DNA of 64,000 nucleotides, from the NCBI RefSeq assembly GCF_003334315.1, contig NZ_QOWR01000011.1, one strand, 5' to 3'. How positions within the stretch are numbered: position 1 is the stretch's first letter; each line of letters starts with the position of its first letter. Both the position numbers and the translations under genes were made by a program. The stretch comes from Escherichia coli. Its GTDB lineage: Bacteria; Pseudomonadota; Gammaproteobacteria; Enterobacterales; Enterobacteriaceae. The notes below the pieces were generated by a model. It was not told the origin of the DNA and did not search any database. It worked only from the letters and a program-made list of their open reading frames with translations. This document shows, piece after piece, positions 1 through 24,823 of the stretch.

Positions 1-1549
<1,549 letters not shown>

Positions 1550-1554
1550 AATAA

Positions 1555-2286
<732 letters not shown>

Positions 2287-2299
2287 GCTGAAGAAATAA

Positions 2300-2983
<684 letters not shown>

Positions 2984-3457
2984 TTAACTTAAAGAGTCTG
3001 TTTCAGGACATGAAATATCCAATCCGGGCAGACGGGTAATGATTCTGCTCATCACCACACCTGCCAGCAATGCAGGAATGATGCGGACAACGAGACTGTC
3101 ACCAGAAAGAATGTTTTCAAACAACTCCGAGGAAGCCATGCCCTTAATATGTACAATAACTGCACAATAGATCTCGGTGATAACGACGCCACCTATGCCA
3201 CCAGCCAGACAACGATAATTTTTCTGTGACCCGATCTTTTCCGGCAGACAGGCGACCATCACGCCGGTTAACAATGCAGGAATAGCTCCCGTAGTAATCG
3301 ACAATAAGAGAAACAATGGAAGTACCTGTATTATTACCAAAAGAACCAGCGGTTCTTTTGCGAAGAATATGTAGAGGACAAGAAACAGAACACCAATTAA
3401 CGGTCCTAAAACCGCAAAATAAAGTCCGTGATGTATTACCCGACGTGAAACAGACAT
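2984..3457 (-). CDS. cbrB: CreB-regulated inner membrane protein CbrB
   Basis: ORF track 2984..3490; multi-pass hydrophobic protein; start trimmed to the internal Met (MSVSRR...) because a cre-tag promoter element sits at 3505-3520; exact start uncertain. Confidence 0.7.
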   Translation of the reverse strand: MSVSRRVIHHGLYFAVLGPLIGVLFLVLYIFFAKEPLVLLVIIQVLPLFLLLSITTGAIPALLTGVMVACLPEKIGSQKNYRCLAGGIGGVVITEIYCAVIVHIKGMASSELFENILSGDSLVVRIIPALLAGVVMSRIITRLPGLDISCPETDSLS

Positions 3458-3504
3458 ATCAAACACCCTTAACTTACCTTTGAGCGCCAATTTAAGCGGG
3501 GTAA

Positions 3505-3520
3505 GTGAAGGGAGTGTGAA
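3505..3520 (-). promoter_or_regulatory. cre tag (CreB binding site TTCACnnnnnnTTCAC) upstream of cbrBC
   Basis: Minus-strand reading gives TTCAC-ACTCCC-TTCAC, a perfect direct repeat with 11-bp period, immediately upstream of the cbrB start. Confidence 0.6.
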
Positions 3521-3523
3521 GAA

Positions 3524-4189
3524 CTATGCCGTAATATCCCAACCACGCGCTTTCCACAGTTCCGGTAACTGCGAAAGATGGGTAAAGGTGGTGACTTTCG
3601 GGTGAACGATCGGCTTATTGTGCGGGTCGGCGCAGAAGTAGAACACTTCCATACCTGCGTCGATACCAGATTGCGCACCGGCAACTGAGTCATCAACCAG
3701 AATGCAGTTTTCTACATTTACATTCATCGCTTTTGCCGCATGGAACATTAACGCCGGGTCTGGCTTCCAGCGCTGAATATCGTAGCCGCTGAACAGTTTA
3801 TCCGGGAAGTAGTGCAACATATTCAGCTTGCCCATAGAATGCTGCATTTTGTTATTTGGGCCGTTAGATACCACACACATTGGCGCAGTGATCGCTGACA
3901 GGAGCGCTCCAGCCCCTTCGATGGCTTCCAGTTCTGAATCGAACAGCCGAGCGACTTCTGCACGGTAAACGTGTTCAGCTTCTGTTTTCGCTAACGTAAC
4001 ACCATGTTCAAGGGAAACAATATCGATAATTTCGTACAGTTTTACACCTTTGAAACGTTTGAATACCTCTTCAGGATCGAGCGTAATACCAAATTCCTGA
4101 AACATCGTTACATATGCGCGAGAGCAAATGACTTCACTGTCGACCAGCGTACCGTCGCAGTCGAAAAATACCGCTTCTATCCGGGACAT
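3524..4189 (-). CDS. yieH: HAD-superfamily sugar-phosphate phosphatase
   Basis: 221-aa ORF; N-terminal HAD motif I (AVFFDCDGTLVDS) with catalytic Asp pair. Confidence 0.85.
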   Translation of the reverse strand: MSRIEAVFFDCDGTLVDSEVICSRAYVTMFQEFGITLDPEEVFKRFKGVKLYEIIDIVSLEHGVTLAKTEAEHVYRAEVARLFDSELEAIEGAGALLSAITAPMCVVSNGPNNKMQHSMGKLNMLHYFPDKLFSGYDIQRWKPDPALMFHAAKAMNVNVENCILVDDSVAGAQSGIDAGMEVFYFCADPHNKPIVHPKVTTFTHLSQLPELWKARGWDITA

Positions 4190-4353
4190 GCCTTTCCTTT
4201 TTAATCAGTTTAACGTTTTCGTAGAGCCGATTTGCGCAACGCAATCGTTGCCGTATAAGTAAATCCAATAAAAAAGTCTCTCACAAACGCGCCTATTGTC
4301 GCATTTTGGTATACGATAGCGACGGATTTTCCCTCCTTGTTCGGAAATAGATA

Positions 4354-5691
4354 ATGAGTCAACAACACACAACCCAGGCTTCTGGCCAGGGGATGCTGGA
4401 ACGCGTGTTTAAACTGCGCGAACATGGCACGACGGCACGGACCGAAGTGATCGCTGGTTTTACCACCTTCCTGACGATGGTTTACATCGTTTTTGTTAAC
4501 CCGCAAATTCTTGGCGTTGCTGGCATGGATACCAGCGCCGTCTTCGTCACTACCTGTCTGATTGCTGCATTCGGCAGTATTATGATGGGACTGTTTGCTA
4601 ACCTGCCAGTTGCACTGGCACCCGCTATGGGCCTGAATGCGTTCTTCGCTTTTGTCGTTGTGCAGGCGATGGGCTTGCCGTGGCAGGTCGGGATGGGCGC
4701 AATCTTCTGGGGCGCGATAGGTCTGCTGTTACTGACGATTTTCCGCGTTCGCTACTGGATGATTGCCAACATTCCGGTGAGTCTGCGTGTGGGCATCACC
4801 AGCGGTATCGGTCTGTTCATTGGTATGATGGGACTGAAGAATGCAGGTGTGATTGTCGCTAACCCGGAAACGCTGGTCAGCATCGGTAATCTGACTTCTC
4901 ACAGCGTGCTGCTGGGGATCCTCGGCTTCTTCATCATCGCCATTCTGGCCTCGCGCAACATTCACGCGGCGGTGCTGGTTTCCATCGTGGTGACAACGCT
5001 GCTGGGCTGGATGCTGGGTGATGTCCACTATAATGGCATCGTTTCTGCGCCGCCGAGCGTAATGACTGTCGTGGGTCATGTAGATTTAGCCGGTTCGTTT
5101 AACCTCGGCCTGGCAGGGGTGATTTTCTCTTTCATGCTGGTCAACCTGTTTGACTCCTCCGGTACGCTGATTGGCGTGACCGATAAAGCAGGTCTGGCGG
5201 ATGAGAAGGGTAAATTCCCGCGCATGAAGCAGGCGCTATATGTCGACAGTATCTCTTCTGTTACCGGTTCGTTTATCGGTACTTCTTCTGTTACGGCGTA
5301 TATCGAGTCTTCTTCCGGCGTTTCTGTTGGTGGTCGTACCGGTCTGACGGCAGTCGTTGTTGGTCTGCTGTTCCTGCTGGTTATCTTTCTGTCGCCGCTG
5401 GCGGGGATGGTGCCAGGCTACGCTGCAGCTGGTGCGCTGATTTACGTTGGCGTGCTGATGACTTCCAGTCTGGCACGCGTGAACTGGCAGGATCTTACTG
5501 AATCTGTTCCGGCGTTTATTACCGCCGTGATGATGCCGTTCAGCTTTTCGATTACCGAAGGTATTGCGCTGGGCTTTATCTCCTACTGCGTAATGAAAAT
5601 CGGTACCGGACGTCTGCGTGATCTAAGCCCGTGCGTAATCATCGTTGCGCTGCTGTTTATCCTGAAGATTGTGTTTATCGACGCTCACTAA
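4354..5691 (+). CDS. adeP: adenine permease (NCS2/AzgA family)
   Basis: 445-aa polytopic membrane ORF; about 70 percent identical to the adeQ product encoded at 57174..58508 in this same window. Confidence 0.9.
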   Translation: MSQQHTTQASGQGMLERVFKLREHGTTARTEVIAGFTTFLTMVYIVFVNPQILGVAGMDTSAVFVTTCLIAAFGSIMMGLFANLPVALAPAMGLNAFFAFVVVQAMGLPWQVGMGAIFWGAIGLLLLTIFRVRYWMIANIPVSLRVGITSGIGLFIGMMGLKNAGVIVANPETLVSIGNLTSHSVLLGILGFFIIAILASRNIHAAVLVSIVVTTLLGWMLGDVHYNGIVSAPPSVMTVVGHVDLAGSFNLGLAGVIFSFMLVNLFDSSGTLIGVTDKAGLADEKGKFPRMKQALYVDSISSVTGSFIGTSSVTAYIESSSGVSVGGRTGLTAVVVGLLFLLVIFLSPLAGMVPGYAAAGALIYVGVLMTSSLARVNWQDLTESVPAFITAVMMPFSFSITEGIALGFISYCVMKIGTGRLRDLSPCVIIVALLFILKIVFIDAH

Positions 5692-5711
5692 AATCGATAG
5701 CGCGTTAAAAA

Positions 5712-5745
5712 CCCGCCATGCATGATTGCTGGCGGGTTATTTATT
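5712..5745. terminator. hairpin plus T-tract between convergent adeP and chrR
   Basis: CCCGCCA...TGGCGGG stem followed by TTATTTATTT directly after the adeP stop. Confidence 0.65.
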
Positions 5746-6311
5746 TAGATCTTAACTCGCTGAATAAACTCACCAAATGCGGTCAATTGCCCGGTCAGGT
5801 GGTCCAGCGTACCCTGGTCAATCACTTCTCCGGTTTGCGGATCAACTTTGTTCTGAATCACGCCGCCCATAAATTCCGGCTTGTTCATCACCATTGCATC
5901 GAGGAAAACCAGAATCTGGCGCAGGTGATACTGACAGCGCGCGCCGCCAATCACGCCCATTGAGCTGGTCTGAATCAATACCGGTTTACCGGCCAGCGGT
6001 TGATCCGGCAGGCGGGAAAGCCAGTCGATGGCATTTTTCAGCCCACCCGGTACCGAGTAGTTATATTCCGGCGTGACGATCACCACACCGTCAGCCTGAC
6101 GGATCTGTTCCGCCAGAGCTTCAACCGTTGCTGGAAAACCGTCTTCCTGCTGTACGTCAGCGTCATACAAGGGAATGTCGGCAATGGAAGGTAACGCATT
6201 GACTTCCATGCTCGCCGGAGCAATTTTCGGCAGGGTACGTGCAACCATGCCATTAAATGAGCCTTTGCGCAGGCTCCCCAGTAACGTAACCACCTGCAAT
6301 TTTTCAGACAT
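5745..6311 (-). CDS. chrR: NAD(P)H-dependent FMN reductase / chromate-quinone reductase
   Basis: 188-aa ORF; flavodoxin-like NADPH-dependent FMN reductase signature (LLGSLRKGSFN). Confidence 0.85.
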   Translation of the reverse strand: MSEKLQVVTLLGSLRKGSFNGMVARTLPKIAPASMEVNALPSIADIPLYDADVQQEDGFPATVEALAEQIRQADGVVIVTPEYNYSVPGGLKNAIDWLSRLPDQPLAGKPVLIQTSSMGVIGGARCQYHLRQILVFLDAMVMNKPEFMGGVIQNKVDPQTGEVIDQGTLDHLTGQLTAFGEFIQRVKI

Positions 6312-6332
6312 GATGACTCCTGTGGTTGTCTA

Positions 6333-7094
6333 TCAATTTGGCGAAAAAGCCTTCACGGTAGAGAGTTGGGCAAAACGCATCATCCGGCTGGTAGGATTGT
6401 TGGCGCGGCTGTGAATATCCGGCAGGCTTTTCCAGCCGTGTTTGCCATCTAACTCCCAGACACTGAGCTTTTCAATCGTGGGCGTGACCGCCACGGACCA
6501 CACCAGCACGTCTTCCGCGTCGCATAACGCTTCTACATGATTTACATGAGCACATTTCAGGCGTCCGGCAATGGGCAGCAGCTGCAGATCGCGCGGATCG
6601 TCATTCAAAACATCACCGGTTAGTTTTAGCACGCTTCGGCGCAGCGTGATGAGCTGCGCCCGCGCTTCGTTAGGATCGTTTTGTTTACTGATCCATAGCG
6701 ATTCATTGCTGGAAAAGGTGTGGTTATCGGGCGCGTGTGGGCTATGAAACCCGCGCGTCGCACGCTGTAGTTCCATATCGAGACCACATTCACCTTCGGT
6801 TGTTAACGCCACGCCAACCATATTCCCGGCATAGGAAATAGAAAACGAAGGCAAATTTTTATCACTGAAAACCGGTTTACCTTTCGGCAGGGTGACGATT
6901 TCCGGCAATTCGCCAATGCCATACAGCATGAACATCAGTTCTGCGAGTAAACCTCTAGACGCCAGAAAACGGCTTTGACGATGAGGGGGAATGTTTCGGG
7001 CTTCTTGATGACACTGGGAGGGGAGACGAACAGAAATCAGATGTCCTTCCGTTAAAATCCCTCGGGCAAAGTGAGTCGCCATTTTTCGCTCCAT
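6333..7094 (-). CDS. yieE: putative 4'-phosphopantetheinyl transferase family protein
   Basis: 253-aa ORF in track; synteny between chrR and yidZ; start may lie a few codons downstream. Confidence 0.7.
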   Translation of the reverse strand: MERKMATHFARGILTEGHLISVRLPSQCHQEARNIPPHRQSRFLASRGLLAELMFMLYGIGELPEIVTLPKGKPVFSDKNLPSFSISYAGNMVGVALTTEGECGLDMELQRATRGFHSPHAPDNHTFSSNESLWISKQNDPNEARAQLITLRRSVLKLTGDVLNDDPRDLQLLPIAGRLKCAHVNHVEALCDAEDVLVWSVAVTPTIEKLSVWELDGKHGWKSLPDIHSRANNPTSRMMRFAQLSTVKAFSPN

Positions 7095-7238
7095 GCTTAA
7101 TGGTCCATTATGAATACAAGAGTAATCATTTACTGGAATGATGGACAGACTAAAGCGGCTAAAAGTTCGATTCAGACAAGCTTATTACAACTTTTTTACA
7201 TTTTATTGTGAAATTGGGTCGCGTTTCATACGATTCGG

Positions 7239-10817: not shown

Positions 10818-12233
10818 TTAAACTTCTTTAAGTTTTGCGGTGAAGTGACGCAATACTTTCGGTTCGTACGTAAAGGTTAATCCTTTAATATTCGCCGCGT
10901 TCTCTTTCACATGTTTAAAGGCTTCAATAATGAAGTCCATATGTGTTTGAGTATATGTTGCGCGCGGAATGGTTAAACGCAGCAGTTCAGCCGGGCATGG
11001 CAGTTGTTTACCGGTTTTCGGATCGCGGCCTAACAGGAAAGAGCCAATTTCTACCGCACGGATACCGGCGACTTTATACAGCTCGCAGGCCAGCGCCTGT
11101 GCCGGGAACTGGTCTGCCGGGATATGCGGCAACAGTTTACCGGCATCAACGAATGCCGCGTGACCGCCCGCCTGCTGGCAGACAACGCCAATCTCTTCCA
11201 GACCATCGACCAGATACTGTACCTGCGCGATACGATAAGCCAGCCAGTCGAGATTCATGCCGTCATACAGACCTACCGCCAGACGCTCCATCGCGCCGCC
11301 TTCCAGGCCGCCATATGTCGGGAAGCCTTCCTGCACCACGCAAAGGGTTCTGCACTCGGTGTACACATCAAAGAAGCTGTCGTCTTTCATGCACAGCAGG
11401 CCGCCCATCGGCACCATCGCATCTTTCTTGGCGGACATCGCCAGCATATCGGCATATTTGTAGGTTTCGCGGGTGATCTGCTCGATGGTCCAGTCTTTGT
11501 ATTCTGCTTCACGCTGCTTGATGAAATAGGCGTTTTCAGCAAAGCGCGCGGAGTCCATTACCACCGGAATATCGTATTTCTTCGCGATGCTGTACATCGC
11601 TTTTAAGTTTGCCAGTGAAACCGGCTGACCACCTGCAGAGTTACTGGTGATGGTTGCAACGATATACGGCACGTTATTCGGACCAACTTCTTCAATACCG
11701 CGTTCTAATCCCTCAAGGTCAAAGTTGCCTTTAAAGTCGTAACGCACGCCCGTATCGAAGGCTTCTTTGATATAGACGTTACGCACGGTACAGCCGTTGA
11801 TCTGGCTATGGCCCTGCGTGGTATCAAAGAAATAGTTAGAGAACGCCACCATTTTGCTGCGATCCAGGCCTTTTTCCTGCTCGCGTTTTTTAATCAGTAC
11901 CGGAATATAGATTTGCTCTGCGCCACGGCCCTGGTGAGTCGGAATGGTGTATTGATAACCAAAGATATTTTTCACTGACTCGGCTAACGCATAGTAGCTA
12001 CGACTGCCGCTGTAGGCTTCGTCGCCGCGCATCATCGCAGCCTGCATGCTCTGCGTCACCGCCCCGGTGCCGCTGTCGGTCAGTAAATCGATAAACACAT
12101 CTTCGCTATCCAGCAGGAACGGGTTCATACCGGATTTAATAATTGCCTCTTCACGATAAGCGCGAGTGGTACGTTTTACTGGCTCAATAACACGAATGCG
12201 GAACGGTTCAGGGAGATGTTTAAAGTTTTCCAT
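10818..12233 (-). CDS. tnaA: tryptophanase (tryptophan indole-lyase, PLP-dependent)
   Basis: ORF track 10818..12248 trimmed to [28 protein letters not shown]... (471 aa); beta-eliminating lyase family. Confidence 0.95.
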
Positions 12234-19742: not shown

Positions 19743-23258
<3,516 letters not shown>

Positions 23259-23279
23259 TGGCGCTAACCATGCGAGCGT

Positions 23280-23378
23280 GCCTGATGCGCTACGCTTATC
23301 AGGCCTACGAAAATCTTGCAATGTATTGAATTTTCATGATTTTGTAGGCCGGATAAGGCGTTCACGCCGCATCCGGCA
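23280..23378. repeat. pair of REP (repetitive extragenic palindromic) elements forming a BIME-like unit downstream of gyrB
   Basis: GCCTGATGCGCTACGCTTATCAGGCCTAC and GTAGGCCGGATAAGGCGTTCACGCCGCATCCGGCA are canonical REP palindromes. Confidence 0.7.
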
Positions 23379-23390
23379 AGAAGCTATAAG

Positions 23391-23423
23391 AAAAGGGCGG
23401 AGATCATCTCCGCCCTTTTTATT
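23391..23423 (+). terminator. rho-independent terminator after gyrB
   Basis: GGGCGGAGAT-c-ATCTCCGCCC stem followed by TTTTTATTT. Confidence 0.75.
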
Positions 23424-23497
23424 TCTGCAATCCGCAATTATCATCCCGCAAATCTATACTTTTTGGGTCAACACGTAACGCTTTACAGGTGATTATC

Positions 23498-23896
23498 ATG
23501 GGGCTTTTTGATGAAGTTGTCGGTGCCTTTCTGAAAGGCGATGCGGGGAAATATCAGGCTATTTTAAGTTGAGTTGAGGAGCAGGGCGGCATTCAGGTGC
23601 TGCTGGAAAAACTGCAAAGTGGCGGCTTAGGGGCCATTCTCTCAACCTGGCTGAGTAATCAACAGGGCAATCAATCGGTTAGTGGCGAGCAACTGGAATC
23701 GGCGCTCGGCACAAATGCGGTGTCCGATCTCGGGCAAAAACTTGGCGTGGATACCAGTACAGCTTCCAGTTTACTGGCAGAACAATTGCCGAAGATTATT
23801 GATGCGCTCTCACCGCAAGGTGAAGTGTCACCACAAGCCAATAACGATCTGCTTTCCGCAGGCATGGAACTGCTGAAAGGGAAACTCTTCCGCTAA
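23498..23896 (+). pseudogene. yidB: DUF937-family protein gene interrupted by an in-frame opal codon (TGA at 23570..23572)
   Basis: ATG at 23498 with upstream GGTGA gives MGLFDEVVGAFLKGDAGKYQAILS then TGA; the same frame continues VEEQGGIQVLLEKLQ... to 23896; read-through is exactly 132 aa. Confidence 0.7.
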
Positions 23897-24010
23897 GCAA
23901 AAAGGGAGCACGCAACGCGCGTTGCATCCCCCTTTTCCCTCGGGTGTTGTACTGATTTTTGAGCGGAATCGCGTTAGCATGGGTCAGGAACCAATCTACC
24001 TGGGGAACTC

Positions 24011-24823
24011 ATGGCTATTAAACTCATTGCTATCGATATGGATGGCACCCTTCTGCTGCCCGATCACACCATTTCACCCGCCGTTAAAAATGCGATTGCC
24101 GCAGCTCGCGCCCGTGGCGTGAATGTCGTGCTAACGACGGGTCGCCCGTATGCAGGTGTGCACAACTACCTGAAAGAGCTGCATATGGAACAGCCGGGCG
24201 ACTACTGCATTACTTATAACGGCGCGCTGGTACAGAAGGCCGCTGATGGTAGCACCGTGGCGCAAACTGCTCTCAGCTATGACGACTATCGTTTCCTGGA
24301 AAAACTCTCTCGCGAAGTCGGTTCTCATTTCCACGCCCTGGACCGCACCACGCTGTACACCGCCAACCGTGATATCAGCTACTACACGGTGCATGAATCC
24401 TTCGTTGCCACCATTCCGCTGGTGTTCTGCGAAGCGGAGAAAATGGACCCCAATACCCAGTTCCTGAAAGTGATGATGATTGATGAACCCGCCATCCTCG
24501 ACCAGGCTATCGCGCGTATTCCGCAGGAAGTGAAAGAGAAATATACCGTGCTGAAAAGTGCGCCGTACTTCCTCGAAATCCTCGATAAACGCGTTAACAA
24601 AGGTACGGGGGTGAAATCACTGGCCGACGTGTTAGGTATTAAACCGGAAGAAATCATGGCGATTGGCGATCAGGAAAACGATATCGCAATGATTGAATAT
24701 GCAGGCGTCGGTGTGGCGATGGATAACGCTATTCCTTCAGTGAAAGAAGTGGCGAACTTTGTCACCAAATCTAACCTTGAAGATGGCGTGGCGTTTGCTA
24801 TTGAGAAGTATGTGCTGAATTAA
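24011..24823 (+). CDS. yidA: HAD-superfamily (Cof-type) sugar phosphatase
   Basis: 270-aa ORF; HAD motif I IAIDMDGTLL and Cof-family C-terminal motifs. Confidence 0.9.
   Translation: MAIKLIAIDMDGTLLLPDHTISPAVKNAIAAARARGVNVVLTTGRPYAGVHNYLKELHMEQPGDYCITYNGALVQKAADGSTVAQTALSYDDYRFLEKLSREVGSHFHALDRTTLYTANRDISYYTVHESFVATIPLVFCEAEKMDPNTQFLKVMMIDEPAILDQAIARIPQEVKEKYTVLKSAPYFLEILDKRVNKGTGVKSLADVLGIKPEEIMAIGDQENDIAMIEYAGVGVAMDNAIPSVKEVANFVTKSNLEDGVAFAIEKYVLN

What the first reader, a model, noticed from the sequence alone, without database searches (positions are those of the whole stretch)
23498..23896. In-frame opal codon in yidB after 24 codons
The ATG at 23498 is followed by MGLFDEVVGAFLKGDAGKYQAILS and then TGA at 23570-23572. 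The same frame continues uninterrupted to 23896, and read-through is exactly 132 aa. This looks like a TGG to TGA nonsense mutation in a conserved DUF937 protein.
Basis: partly seen in the sequence, partly recalled or inferred. Interest (0 to 1): 0.5.

Follow-up and report, generated by a model that had tools for sequence, protein, structure and literature searches.

The report
Known nonsense allele of E. coli yidB
A single G-to-A change turns the invariant tryptophan codon 25 of the small, function-unknown E. coli gene yidB into a stop codon; it is a real, lineage-wide variant that public annotation already marks as a pseudogene, so it is ordinary.

Summary
ATG 23498 opens 24 codons, TGA lies at 23570-23572, and the same frame runs on to TAA 23894-23896 (132 codons if read through). 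The window is the E. coli gyrB-yidB-yidA region. The closest intact alleles (UMNK88 and five others) differ from the window's yidB at one base, 23572 (G instead of A), so the lesion is TGG(Trp25) to TGA. Trp25 is invariant in 38 homologues, and the N-terminal 24 residues are among the best-conserved parts of the protein. It is not a sequencing error: the allele occurs in at least 85 of 5,426 complete E. coli genomes, and RefSeq annotates it as 'yidB, pseudogene, internal stop'. A second, independent nonsense allele (Trp51 TGG to TAG) sits on nearly the same haplotype in 31 more genomes. There is no SECIS-like structure and no conservation of the stop. The most likely outcome is a 24-residue peptide with loss of YidB. 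Two minor products are possible: a few percent of wild-type protein from Trp-tRNA readthrough of UGA, and a weak restart at ATT 23591 or GTG 23597 that would lack helices 1-2. YidB function is unknown and a K-12 deletion is viable. Verdict: already known, low interest.

The parts
23498..23896 (+). yidB pseudogene: 132 codons plus TAA stop (23894-23896), interrupted at codon 25
   Evidence: RefSeq annotates identical DNA as 'yidB, YidB family protein, pseudogene, internal stop'.
23570..23572 (+). Premature opal stop (TGA) at codon 25. The mutated base is 23572, A here and G in intact alleles.
   Evidence: it is the only difference from intact yidB in six close relatives. W25 is invariant in 38 homologues.
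23487..23492 (+). Shine-Dalgarno-like AGGTGA of the native start, 5 nt before ATG 23498
   Evidence: Sequence. Duplex with the 16S 3' end is -3.8 kcal/mol, with the paired stretch ending 6 nt before the ATG. Function is inferred.
23498..23569 (+). The 24 codons still translated from the native start (MGLFDEVVGAFLKGDAGKYQAILS), covering predicted helix 1 and most of helix 2
   Evidence: It scores 44.5 bits on positions 1-24 of NF008509.
23575..23581 (+). Strong SD-like TGAGGAG inside the coding sequence (codons 26-28), just after the stop. It lies 8 nt before ATT 23591 and 14 nt before GTG 23597.
   Evidence: duplex -8.3 to -8.5 kcal/mol; about 3% of random 22-mers from the window reach -7 or better. 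It is also present in wild-type alleles, so it is not an adaptation.
23591..23593 (+). In-frame ATT (Ile32), a possible rare-codon restart site with good SD spacing
   Evidence: Inference only.
23597..23896 (+). 99-codon GTG-start ORF that gene callers report in carriers. It would lack predicted helices 1-2.
   Evidence: The exact protein is deposited (AUY89592.1 and others) and was seen on at least 1000 contigs. It scores 206.4 bits, below the 243 cutoff.
23648..23650 (+). Codon 51 (TGG, Trp), intact in the window. It is the site of the second, independent nonsense allele (TAG) in relatives.
   Evidence: L003, EC-107. The probe finds it in 31 of 5,426 genomes.
23904..23936 (.). G+C-rich palindrome (GCAACGCGCGTTGC core) followed by CCTTTT, after the yidB stop. 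Terminator-like.
   Evidence: Sequence. The pattern scan called it only on the minus strand. On the plus strand the T-run is only 4, so its function is uncertain.

Best explanation
This is a lineage-specific nonsense polymorphism: a single G-to-A transition at 23572 changed Trp25 (TGG) of yidB to an opal stop. Ribosomes that start at ATG 23498 terminate after 24 codons, so carriers make little or no full-length YidB. The gene is a recent pseudogene, either null or strongly hypomorphic. The rest of the ORF is still open only because too little time has passed for further decay. The allele is carried by a widespread group of E. coli, one member of which is ST542, found in pigs, poultry, frogs, water and humans. 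It is most likely neutral or nearly so. Shown here: the mutation, its polarity, its frequency, the conservation of the lost segment and the existing pseudogene annotation. Inferred: the loss of protein and the lack of a fitness cost.
For: A single-base difference separates the window from six intact close relatives. UMNK88 differs at only 8 positions in 24 kb. W25 is invariant and residues 1-26 are highly conserved in 38 homologues. The 1Z67 crystal structure covers residues 1-132 and matches the model at TM 0.81; in the model W25 lies in helix 2. The allele is in 85 of 5,426 complete genomes, against 3,451 with TGG in the same context. PGAP annotates an 'internal stop' pseudogene. An independent W51* allele in 31 genomes on nearly the same haplotype shows that loss of yidB is tolerated repeatedly. 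One carrier has picked up a further missense change, F11L. A K-12 yidB deletion is viable, and its vesicle output was 0.82 times wild type (PMC12287860).
Against: No protein or ribosome data exist for a carrier strain. UGA is the leakiest stop codon in E. coli, and this one is followed by G, which one study found favours readthrough (PMC11126739), so the allele may not be a complete null. Both nonsense alleles have reached appreciable frequency, which could also reflect selection rather than neutrality. About 1,890 genomes matched neither probe, so the frequencies are lower bounds.
Confidence: 0.85

Rival explanations
1. Leaky hypomorph. Trp-tRNA(CCA) misreads UGA in competition with RF2 and inserts Trp, which is the ancestral residue. 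Carriers would then still make authentic wild-type YidB at a few percent of normal, and that might be enough for function.
For: UGA readthrough reporters in K-12 give about 2% at 37 C and 4% at 25 C, through competition between Trp-tRNATrp and RF2 (PMC10570021). [quoted passage not shown] Here +4 is G. Salmonella pseudogenes give low-level full-length protein (PMC9122581).
Against: The 5 nt upstream of the stop (TAAGT) are A/T-rich, and that study found upstream T lowers readthrough. The K-12 rates are attributed partly to its inefficient RF2 allele (PMC11126739), and this strain's prfB lies outside the window. The stop is not conserved in any orthologue. The parallel W51* allele is TAG, and the same study ranks TAG below TGA for readthrough, so the lineage tolerates stronger knock-outs too.
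Confidence: 0.15
2. Adaptive gene loss. Inactivating yidB is advantageous in this lineage, which would explain two independent Trp-to-stop knock-outs that each reached dozens of genomes.
For: Two independent nonsense alleles (W25* in 85 genomes, W51* in 31) lie on haplotypes that differ at about 7 sites in 24 kb. In the sample of near-identical 24-kb haplotypes, a large share carry one allele or the other.
Against: Two events in one gene across 5,426 genomes are not unusual, since bacterial genomes carry many pseudogenes (PMC9122581). Clonal expansion and hitch-hiking explain the frequencies equally well. No yidB phenotype is known. No test of selection was possible with these tools.
Confidence: 0.1
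3. Restart product. After termination at UGA, ribosomes re-initiate at in-frame ATT 23591 or GTG 23597, using the strong internal SD-like TGAGGAG. The result would be a 99-101 aa protein that keeps YidB function.
For: TGAGGAG pairs with the 16S 3' end at -8.3 to -8.5 kcal/mol, 8 nt before the ATT and 14 nt before the GTG. Gene callers routinely output the 99-aa ORF.
Against: ATT is a poor start codon, and 14 nt is well beyond the usual SD spacing (general knowledge of bacterial initiation). The product would lack predicted helices 1-2, including 4 invariant (M1, D5, Q20, W25) and 11 nearly invariant residues. It scores 206 bits, below the 243 family cutoff. No orthologue starts there.
Confidence: 0.05
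4. Sequencing or assembly error, or programmed recoding with selenocysteine at UGA.
For: None beyond the presence of an in-frame TGA.
Against: Eighty-five independent complete assemblies share the base. The 76 nt from the stop onward fold no better than shuffled sequence (z = -0.03). No Rfam family, SECIS included, matches over the stop even at E up to 10. The ancestral residue is Trp, not Cys or Sec, in 38 of 38 homologues.
Confidence: 0.01

Closest known systems
E. coli K-12 YidB (b3698; NCBIfam NF008509 / PRK11426; Pfam PF20159 YidB-like), with the crystal structure of the Shigella flexneri orthologue S4005 (PDB 1Z67, 'homeodomain-like protein of unknown function')
   Same: Same locus between gyrB and yidA. 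The 132 codons are identical to the common intact allele WP_000522208.1 except codon 25. With W25 restored it matches the equivalog end to end at 288.5 bits and 1Z67 at E 3.9e-77. The predicted fold matches 1Z67 at TM 0.81.
   Different: Codon 25 is TGA instead of TGG, so the reading frame is interrupted. Neither real product (24 aa, or 99 aa from the GTG) reaches the family cutoff.
RefSeq/PGAP 'yidB pseudogene, internal stop' entries, such as EAH50_RS02160 in strain CP53 and BWI86_RS02190 in 13C1065T
   Same: Identical DNA over the gene and its flanks, and the same stop. This is the same allele, already recorded.
   Different: Nothing, except that some GenBank submissions annotate the 99-aa GTG ORF as a protein instead (AUY89592.1 and others).
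The W51* (TGG to TAG) yidB allele of strains such as EC-107, PK8241 and NCTC9080
   Same: Same gene and nearly the same haplotype (7 differences in 24 kb). It is also a G-to-A change at an invariant Trp codon and is also annotated 'internal stop'.
   Different: It arose independently at a different codon, is amber rather than opal, and is found in 31 rather than 85 genomes. The window does not carry it.
Bacterial 'pseudo-pseudogenes': low-level readthrough of in-frame stops (Salmonella, PMC9122581; E. coli reporters, PMC11126739 and PMC10570021)
   Same: An in-frame UGA in an otherwise intact, presumably transcribed gene. Near-cognate Trp insertion would restore the wild-type sequence.
   Different: No expression data exist for this locus, so the resemblance is by analogy only.

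Membership tests
YidB family (NCBIfam NF008509 equivalog / Pfam PF20159) | Full-length match to the equivalog HMM above the curated cutoff (243 bits) | tested here: not met
   With W restored at 25 the score is 288.5 bits over 1-132. The products actually encoded score 206.4 bits (99 aa) and 44.5 bits (24 aa), both below the cutoff. The locus is therefore a yidB gene by descent but does not encode a family-grade protein.
YidB family (NCBIfam NF008509 equivalog / Pfam PF20159) | Orthologous position between gyrB and yidA | tested here: met
   ORFs in the window and the RefSeq feature tables of identical or near-identical DNA.
YidB family (NCBIfam NF008509 equivalog / Pfam PF20159) | All-helical fold of PDB 1Z67 | tested here: met
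The AF2 model (pLDDT 70) matches 1Z67 with TM 0.81-0.84.
Pseudogene by nonsense mutation | Sense codon at the site in orthologues, and a single-base difference from the nearest intact allele | tested here: met
   W25 is present in 38 of 38 homologues. Base 23572 is the only yidB difference from six intact relatives.
Pseudogene by nonsense mutation | Loss of the full-length protein in vivo | not testable with these tools
   This needs a western blot, mass spectrometry or ribosome profiling in a carrier strain.
Selenoprotein gene (UGA decoded as Sec) | SECIS stem-loop immediately 3' of the UGA, and Cys or Sec at the homologous position in relatives | tested here: not met
   The downstream fold is no better than shuffled sequence (z -0.03). 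There is no Rfam hit over the stop. Relatives have Trp at that position.
Programmed stop-codon readthrough | The stop codon and a stimulatory context are conserved among orthologues | tested here: not met
   The stop is confined to one E. coli lineage, 85 of 5,426 genomes. All other homologues have TGG/W.

The most novel reading that the evidence does not exclude
yidB is being lost repeatedly, and perhaps adaptively, in one successful livestock- and human-associated E. coli lineage. Two independent G-to-A knock-outs hit its only two, invariant, Trp codons. The opal allele would act as a leaky, possibly temperature-dependent hypomorph, because UGA readthrough inserts the original Trp.
Probability: 0.1. 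Interest if true: 0.35.

Novelty: already known. Interest (0 to 1): 0.1.

Why it matters
It matters little. The allele is already in RefSeq as a pseudogene and affects a small protein of unknown function whose deletion is tolerated. It has three modest uses. Natural knock-outs (W25* and W51*) exist in well-sampled lineages and could be compared with intact sister strains to look for a YidB phenotype. The UGA allele is a natural reporter for Trp-inserting readthrough. And it is an annotation caution: some GenBank submissions list a 99-aa 'protein' at this locus, once under the name 'radical SAM domain-containing protein'.

Tried and rejected
Sequencing error was rejected because 85 complete assemblies share the base.

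Selenocysteine or structured recoding was rejected: the RNA fold from the stop onward has z = -0.03, and an Rfam scan at E up to 10 found nothing over the stop.

A suppressor tRNA nearby was ruled out for this region because the window holds no tRNA genes. trpT and prfB lie elsewhere, so they could not be checked.

The idea that orthologues start at the downstream GTG was rejected by alignments A1 and A2.

The promoter and terminator scan of 23200-24100 gave no plus-strand promoter call for yidB and only minus-strand terminator calls at the 23904-23936 palindrome, so it said nothing firm about transcription or polarity on yidA.

The literature search for yidB function gave only incidental mentions. 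PMC12287860 reports upregulation under enrofloxacin and no vesicle phenotype for the deletion. PMC10080781 probably means ydiB.

I tried to name the lineage from the literature and got one data point: carrier GSH8M-2 is ST542. I did not try to type the other carriers.

I could not count all yidB pseudogene alleles across the 5,426 genomes. The search table does not show pseudogene flags, and each allele needs its own probe.

Full report
**What is in the sequence.** Reading 23300-24100 and translating 23498-23899 confirms the finding exactly. ATG at 23498 is followed by MGLFDEVVGAFLKGDAGKYQAILS and then TGA at 23570-23572. The same frame stays open to TAA at 23894-23896, which gives 132 codons if the TGA is read through. 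The ORF listing also reports the 99-aa GTG ORF at 23597-23896. The neighbours are gyrB (ending 23258) upstream and a 270-aa HAD phosphatase (yidA, 24011-24823) downstream, then yidX and dgoR. This is the E. coli gyrB-yidB-yidA-yidX-dgoR arrangement, confirmed by the RefSeq feature tables of matching genomes.

**Identity of the gene.** With W at position 25, the protein matches the NCBIfam equivalog NF008509 (PRK11426) over 1-132 of 132 positions at 288.5 bits, against a cutoff of 243. It also matches Pfam YidB PF20159 (E 1.2e-17). DUF937 (PF06078) is only a weak secondary hit (E 0.003). The Shigella flexneri orthologue S4005 has a solved structure, 1Z67, which aligns over all 132 residues (E 3.9e-77). 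An AlphaFold2 model built from 38 homologues (pLDDT 70) matches 1Z67 with TM 0.81. It has helices at residues 3-11, 15-28, 32-52, 63-70, 72-82, 86-104 and 118-130. W25 therefore lies in helix 2 and W51 at the end of helix 3.

**The lesion is one base.** I fetched 24 kb around yidB from close relatives. UMNK88 differs from the window at 8 positions in 24,001, and within yidB only at 23572, where it has G and the window has A. Five more near-identical genomes with intact yidB (E275a, EH10-18-47, MB22, 25-07233, 2023CK-01509) show the same single difference.

**The lost segment is conserved.** In alignments of 13 and 38 homologues from about ten enterobacterial genera, every full-length protein starts at the same MGLFD motif. 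M1, D5, Q20 and W25 are invariant. G2, L3, F4, G9, G14, A16, Y19, A21, I22, L23 and V26 are at least 90% conserved.

**It is not an error, and it is already recorded.** A 561-bp query around the gene finds at least 40 complete genomes that are 100% identical. A 33-base probe centred on the variant base can only hit its own allele, because megablast needs an exact 28-mer. It finds TGA in 85 of 5,426 complete genomes and TGG in the same context in 3,451, including K-12 MG1655. About 1,890 genomes matched neither probe, presumably because of nearby SNPs, so 1.6% is a lower bound. Carriers come from pigs, poultry, ducks, frogs, river water, wastewater and humans on several continents. One of them, GSH8M-2, is ST542 (PMC6662510). 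RefSeq/PGAP annotates the locus in carriers as 'yidB, YidB family protein, pseudogene, internal stop'. Some GenBank submissions instead annotate the 99-aa GTG ORF. That exact protein is on record (AUY89592.1, BBJ89468.1 and others) on at least 1,000 contigs, and one source names it 'radical SAM domain-containing protein', which is a misnomer.

**An unexpected addition: a second allele.** EC-107 is equally close to the window (7 differences in 24 kb) and is also annotated 'internal stop'. It has G at 23572, however, and A at 23649, which turns Trp51 (TGG) into TAG. A probe for this allele finds 31 genomes. At three other polymorphic sites (29898, 29907, 29937) EC-107 groups with the intact UMNK88, while carrier 13C1065T groups with the window. 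The two stops are therefore independent events on sister haplotypes. Together they disable yidB in at least 116 of 5,426 genomes (2.1%). Carrier 13C1065T has added a missense change, F11L, upstream of the stop. This fits relaxed constraint, although one substitution proves nothing.

**What the allele most likely does.** The native start has an AGGTGA Shine-Dalgarno sequence 5 nt upstream, so ribosomes should load and then terminate after 24 codons. Three minor routes to protein were considered.

- **Readthrough.** In K-12 reporters UGA is read through at about 2% (37 C) to 4% (25 C), through competition between Trp-tRNATrp and RF2 (PMC10570021). Premature TGA is 'almost always replaced by tryptophan', G at +4 favours readthrough, and T-rich upstream sequence disfavours it (PMC11126739). 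Here +4 is G and the upstream pentamer is TAAGT, so the context is mixed. Any readthrough product would be authentic wild-type YidB. The K-12 rates are attributed partly to its weak RF2 allele, and this strain's prfB is outside the window.
- **Restart.** A strong SD-like TGAGGAG at 23575-23581 (duplex -8.3 kcal/mol; about 3% of random 22-mers reach -7 or better) lies 8 nt before in-frame ATT 23591 and 14 nt before GTG 23597. It is ordinary coding sequence (V26 E27 E28) that wild-type alleles also have. ATT is a poor initiator and 14 nt is a poor spacing. The product would lack helices 1-2 and scores below the family cutoff (206 vs 243 bits).
- **Selenocysteine or structured recoding.** This is excluded. 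The fold from the stop onward is no better than shuffled sequence (z = -0.03), there is no Rfam match over the stop, and the homologous residue is Trp throughout.

**Function and consequence.** YidB has no established function. 1Z67 is titled 'homeodomain-like protein of unknown function'. The only experimental mentions I found are induction by sub-MIC enrofloxacin in MG1655 and a viable deletion mutant whose vesicle output was 0.82 times wild type (PMC12287860). Two independent natural knock-outs in successful lineages agree with dispensability. Whether the loss is neutral or advantageous cannot be decided with these tools.

**Verdict.** This is a real, lineage-wide TGG-to-TGA nonsense polymorphism in yidB that public annotation already records as a pseudogene. 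It is ordinary, so interest is low. The only mildly notable points are the parallel W51* allele and the fact that UGA readthrough would restore the wild-type residue.

Noticed in passing
window 23648-23650; L003 (EC-107) 11649-11651: A second, independent yidB nonsense allele (Trp51 TGG to TAG, base 23649 G to A) occurs in close relatives, on a haplotype 7 SNPs away in 24 kb. A probe finds it in 31 of 5,426 complete genomes. The window itself has TGG here.
   Followed up: yes
window 23301-23421: The gyrB-yidB spacer holds REP/BIME-type palindromes. Rfam ES036 (CssrF) scores 44.8 bits, above its 37.6 gathering score, at 23301-23343 (-). naRNA4 scores 47.1 bits, below its 59.5 gathering score, at 23347-23421 (+). 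A hairpin with a T-run (about 23392-23425) looks like the gyrB terminator.
   Followed up: no
window 23575-23581: A strong internal Shine-Dalgarno-like TGAGGAG (-8.3 kcal/mol against the 16S 3' end) lies inside yidB codons 26-28, 8 nt before in-frame ATT 23591. It is present in wild-type alleles too.
   Followed up: partly
L004 (13C1065T) 1-234 and position 11531 (= window 23530): This carrier strain also has tnaA annotated as a pseudogene with an internal stop. It carries an extra F11L change in yidB upstream of the TGA.
   Followed up: no
L010 (strain 25-07233), yidB CDS 102-542: PGAP calls a 441-nt yidB that starts 14 codons upstream at ATA (WP_463725820.1), although the upstream DNA is identical to the window's and to genomes annotated with the 399-nt gene. 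This is an annotation oddity.
   Followed up: partly
window 23597-23896 (protein P0121): The exact 99-aa GTG-start remnant is deposited in GenBank and UniRef as a protein and was seen on at least 1,000 contigs. One source names it 'radical SAM domain-containing protein', which nothing in the sequence supports.
   Followed up: partly
literature (PMC10080781, PMC12287860): PMC10080781 lists 'yidB' with aroD as a rate-limiting shikimate-pathway enzyme, which is probably a slip for ydiB. PMC12287860 says YidB is predicted to have hydrolase/phosphatase activity, which probably confuses it with its neighbour YidA (HAD phosphatase). Neither statement is evidence for YidB function.
   Followed up: no
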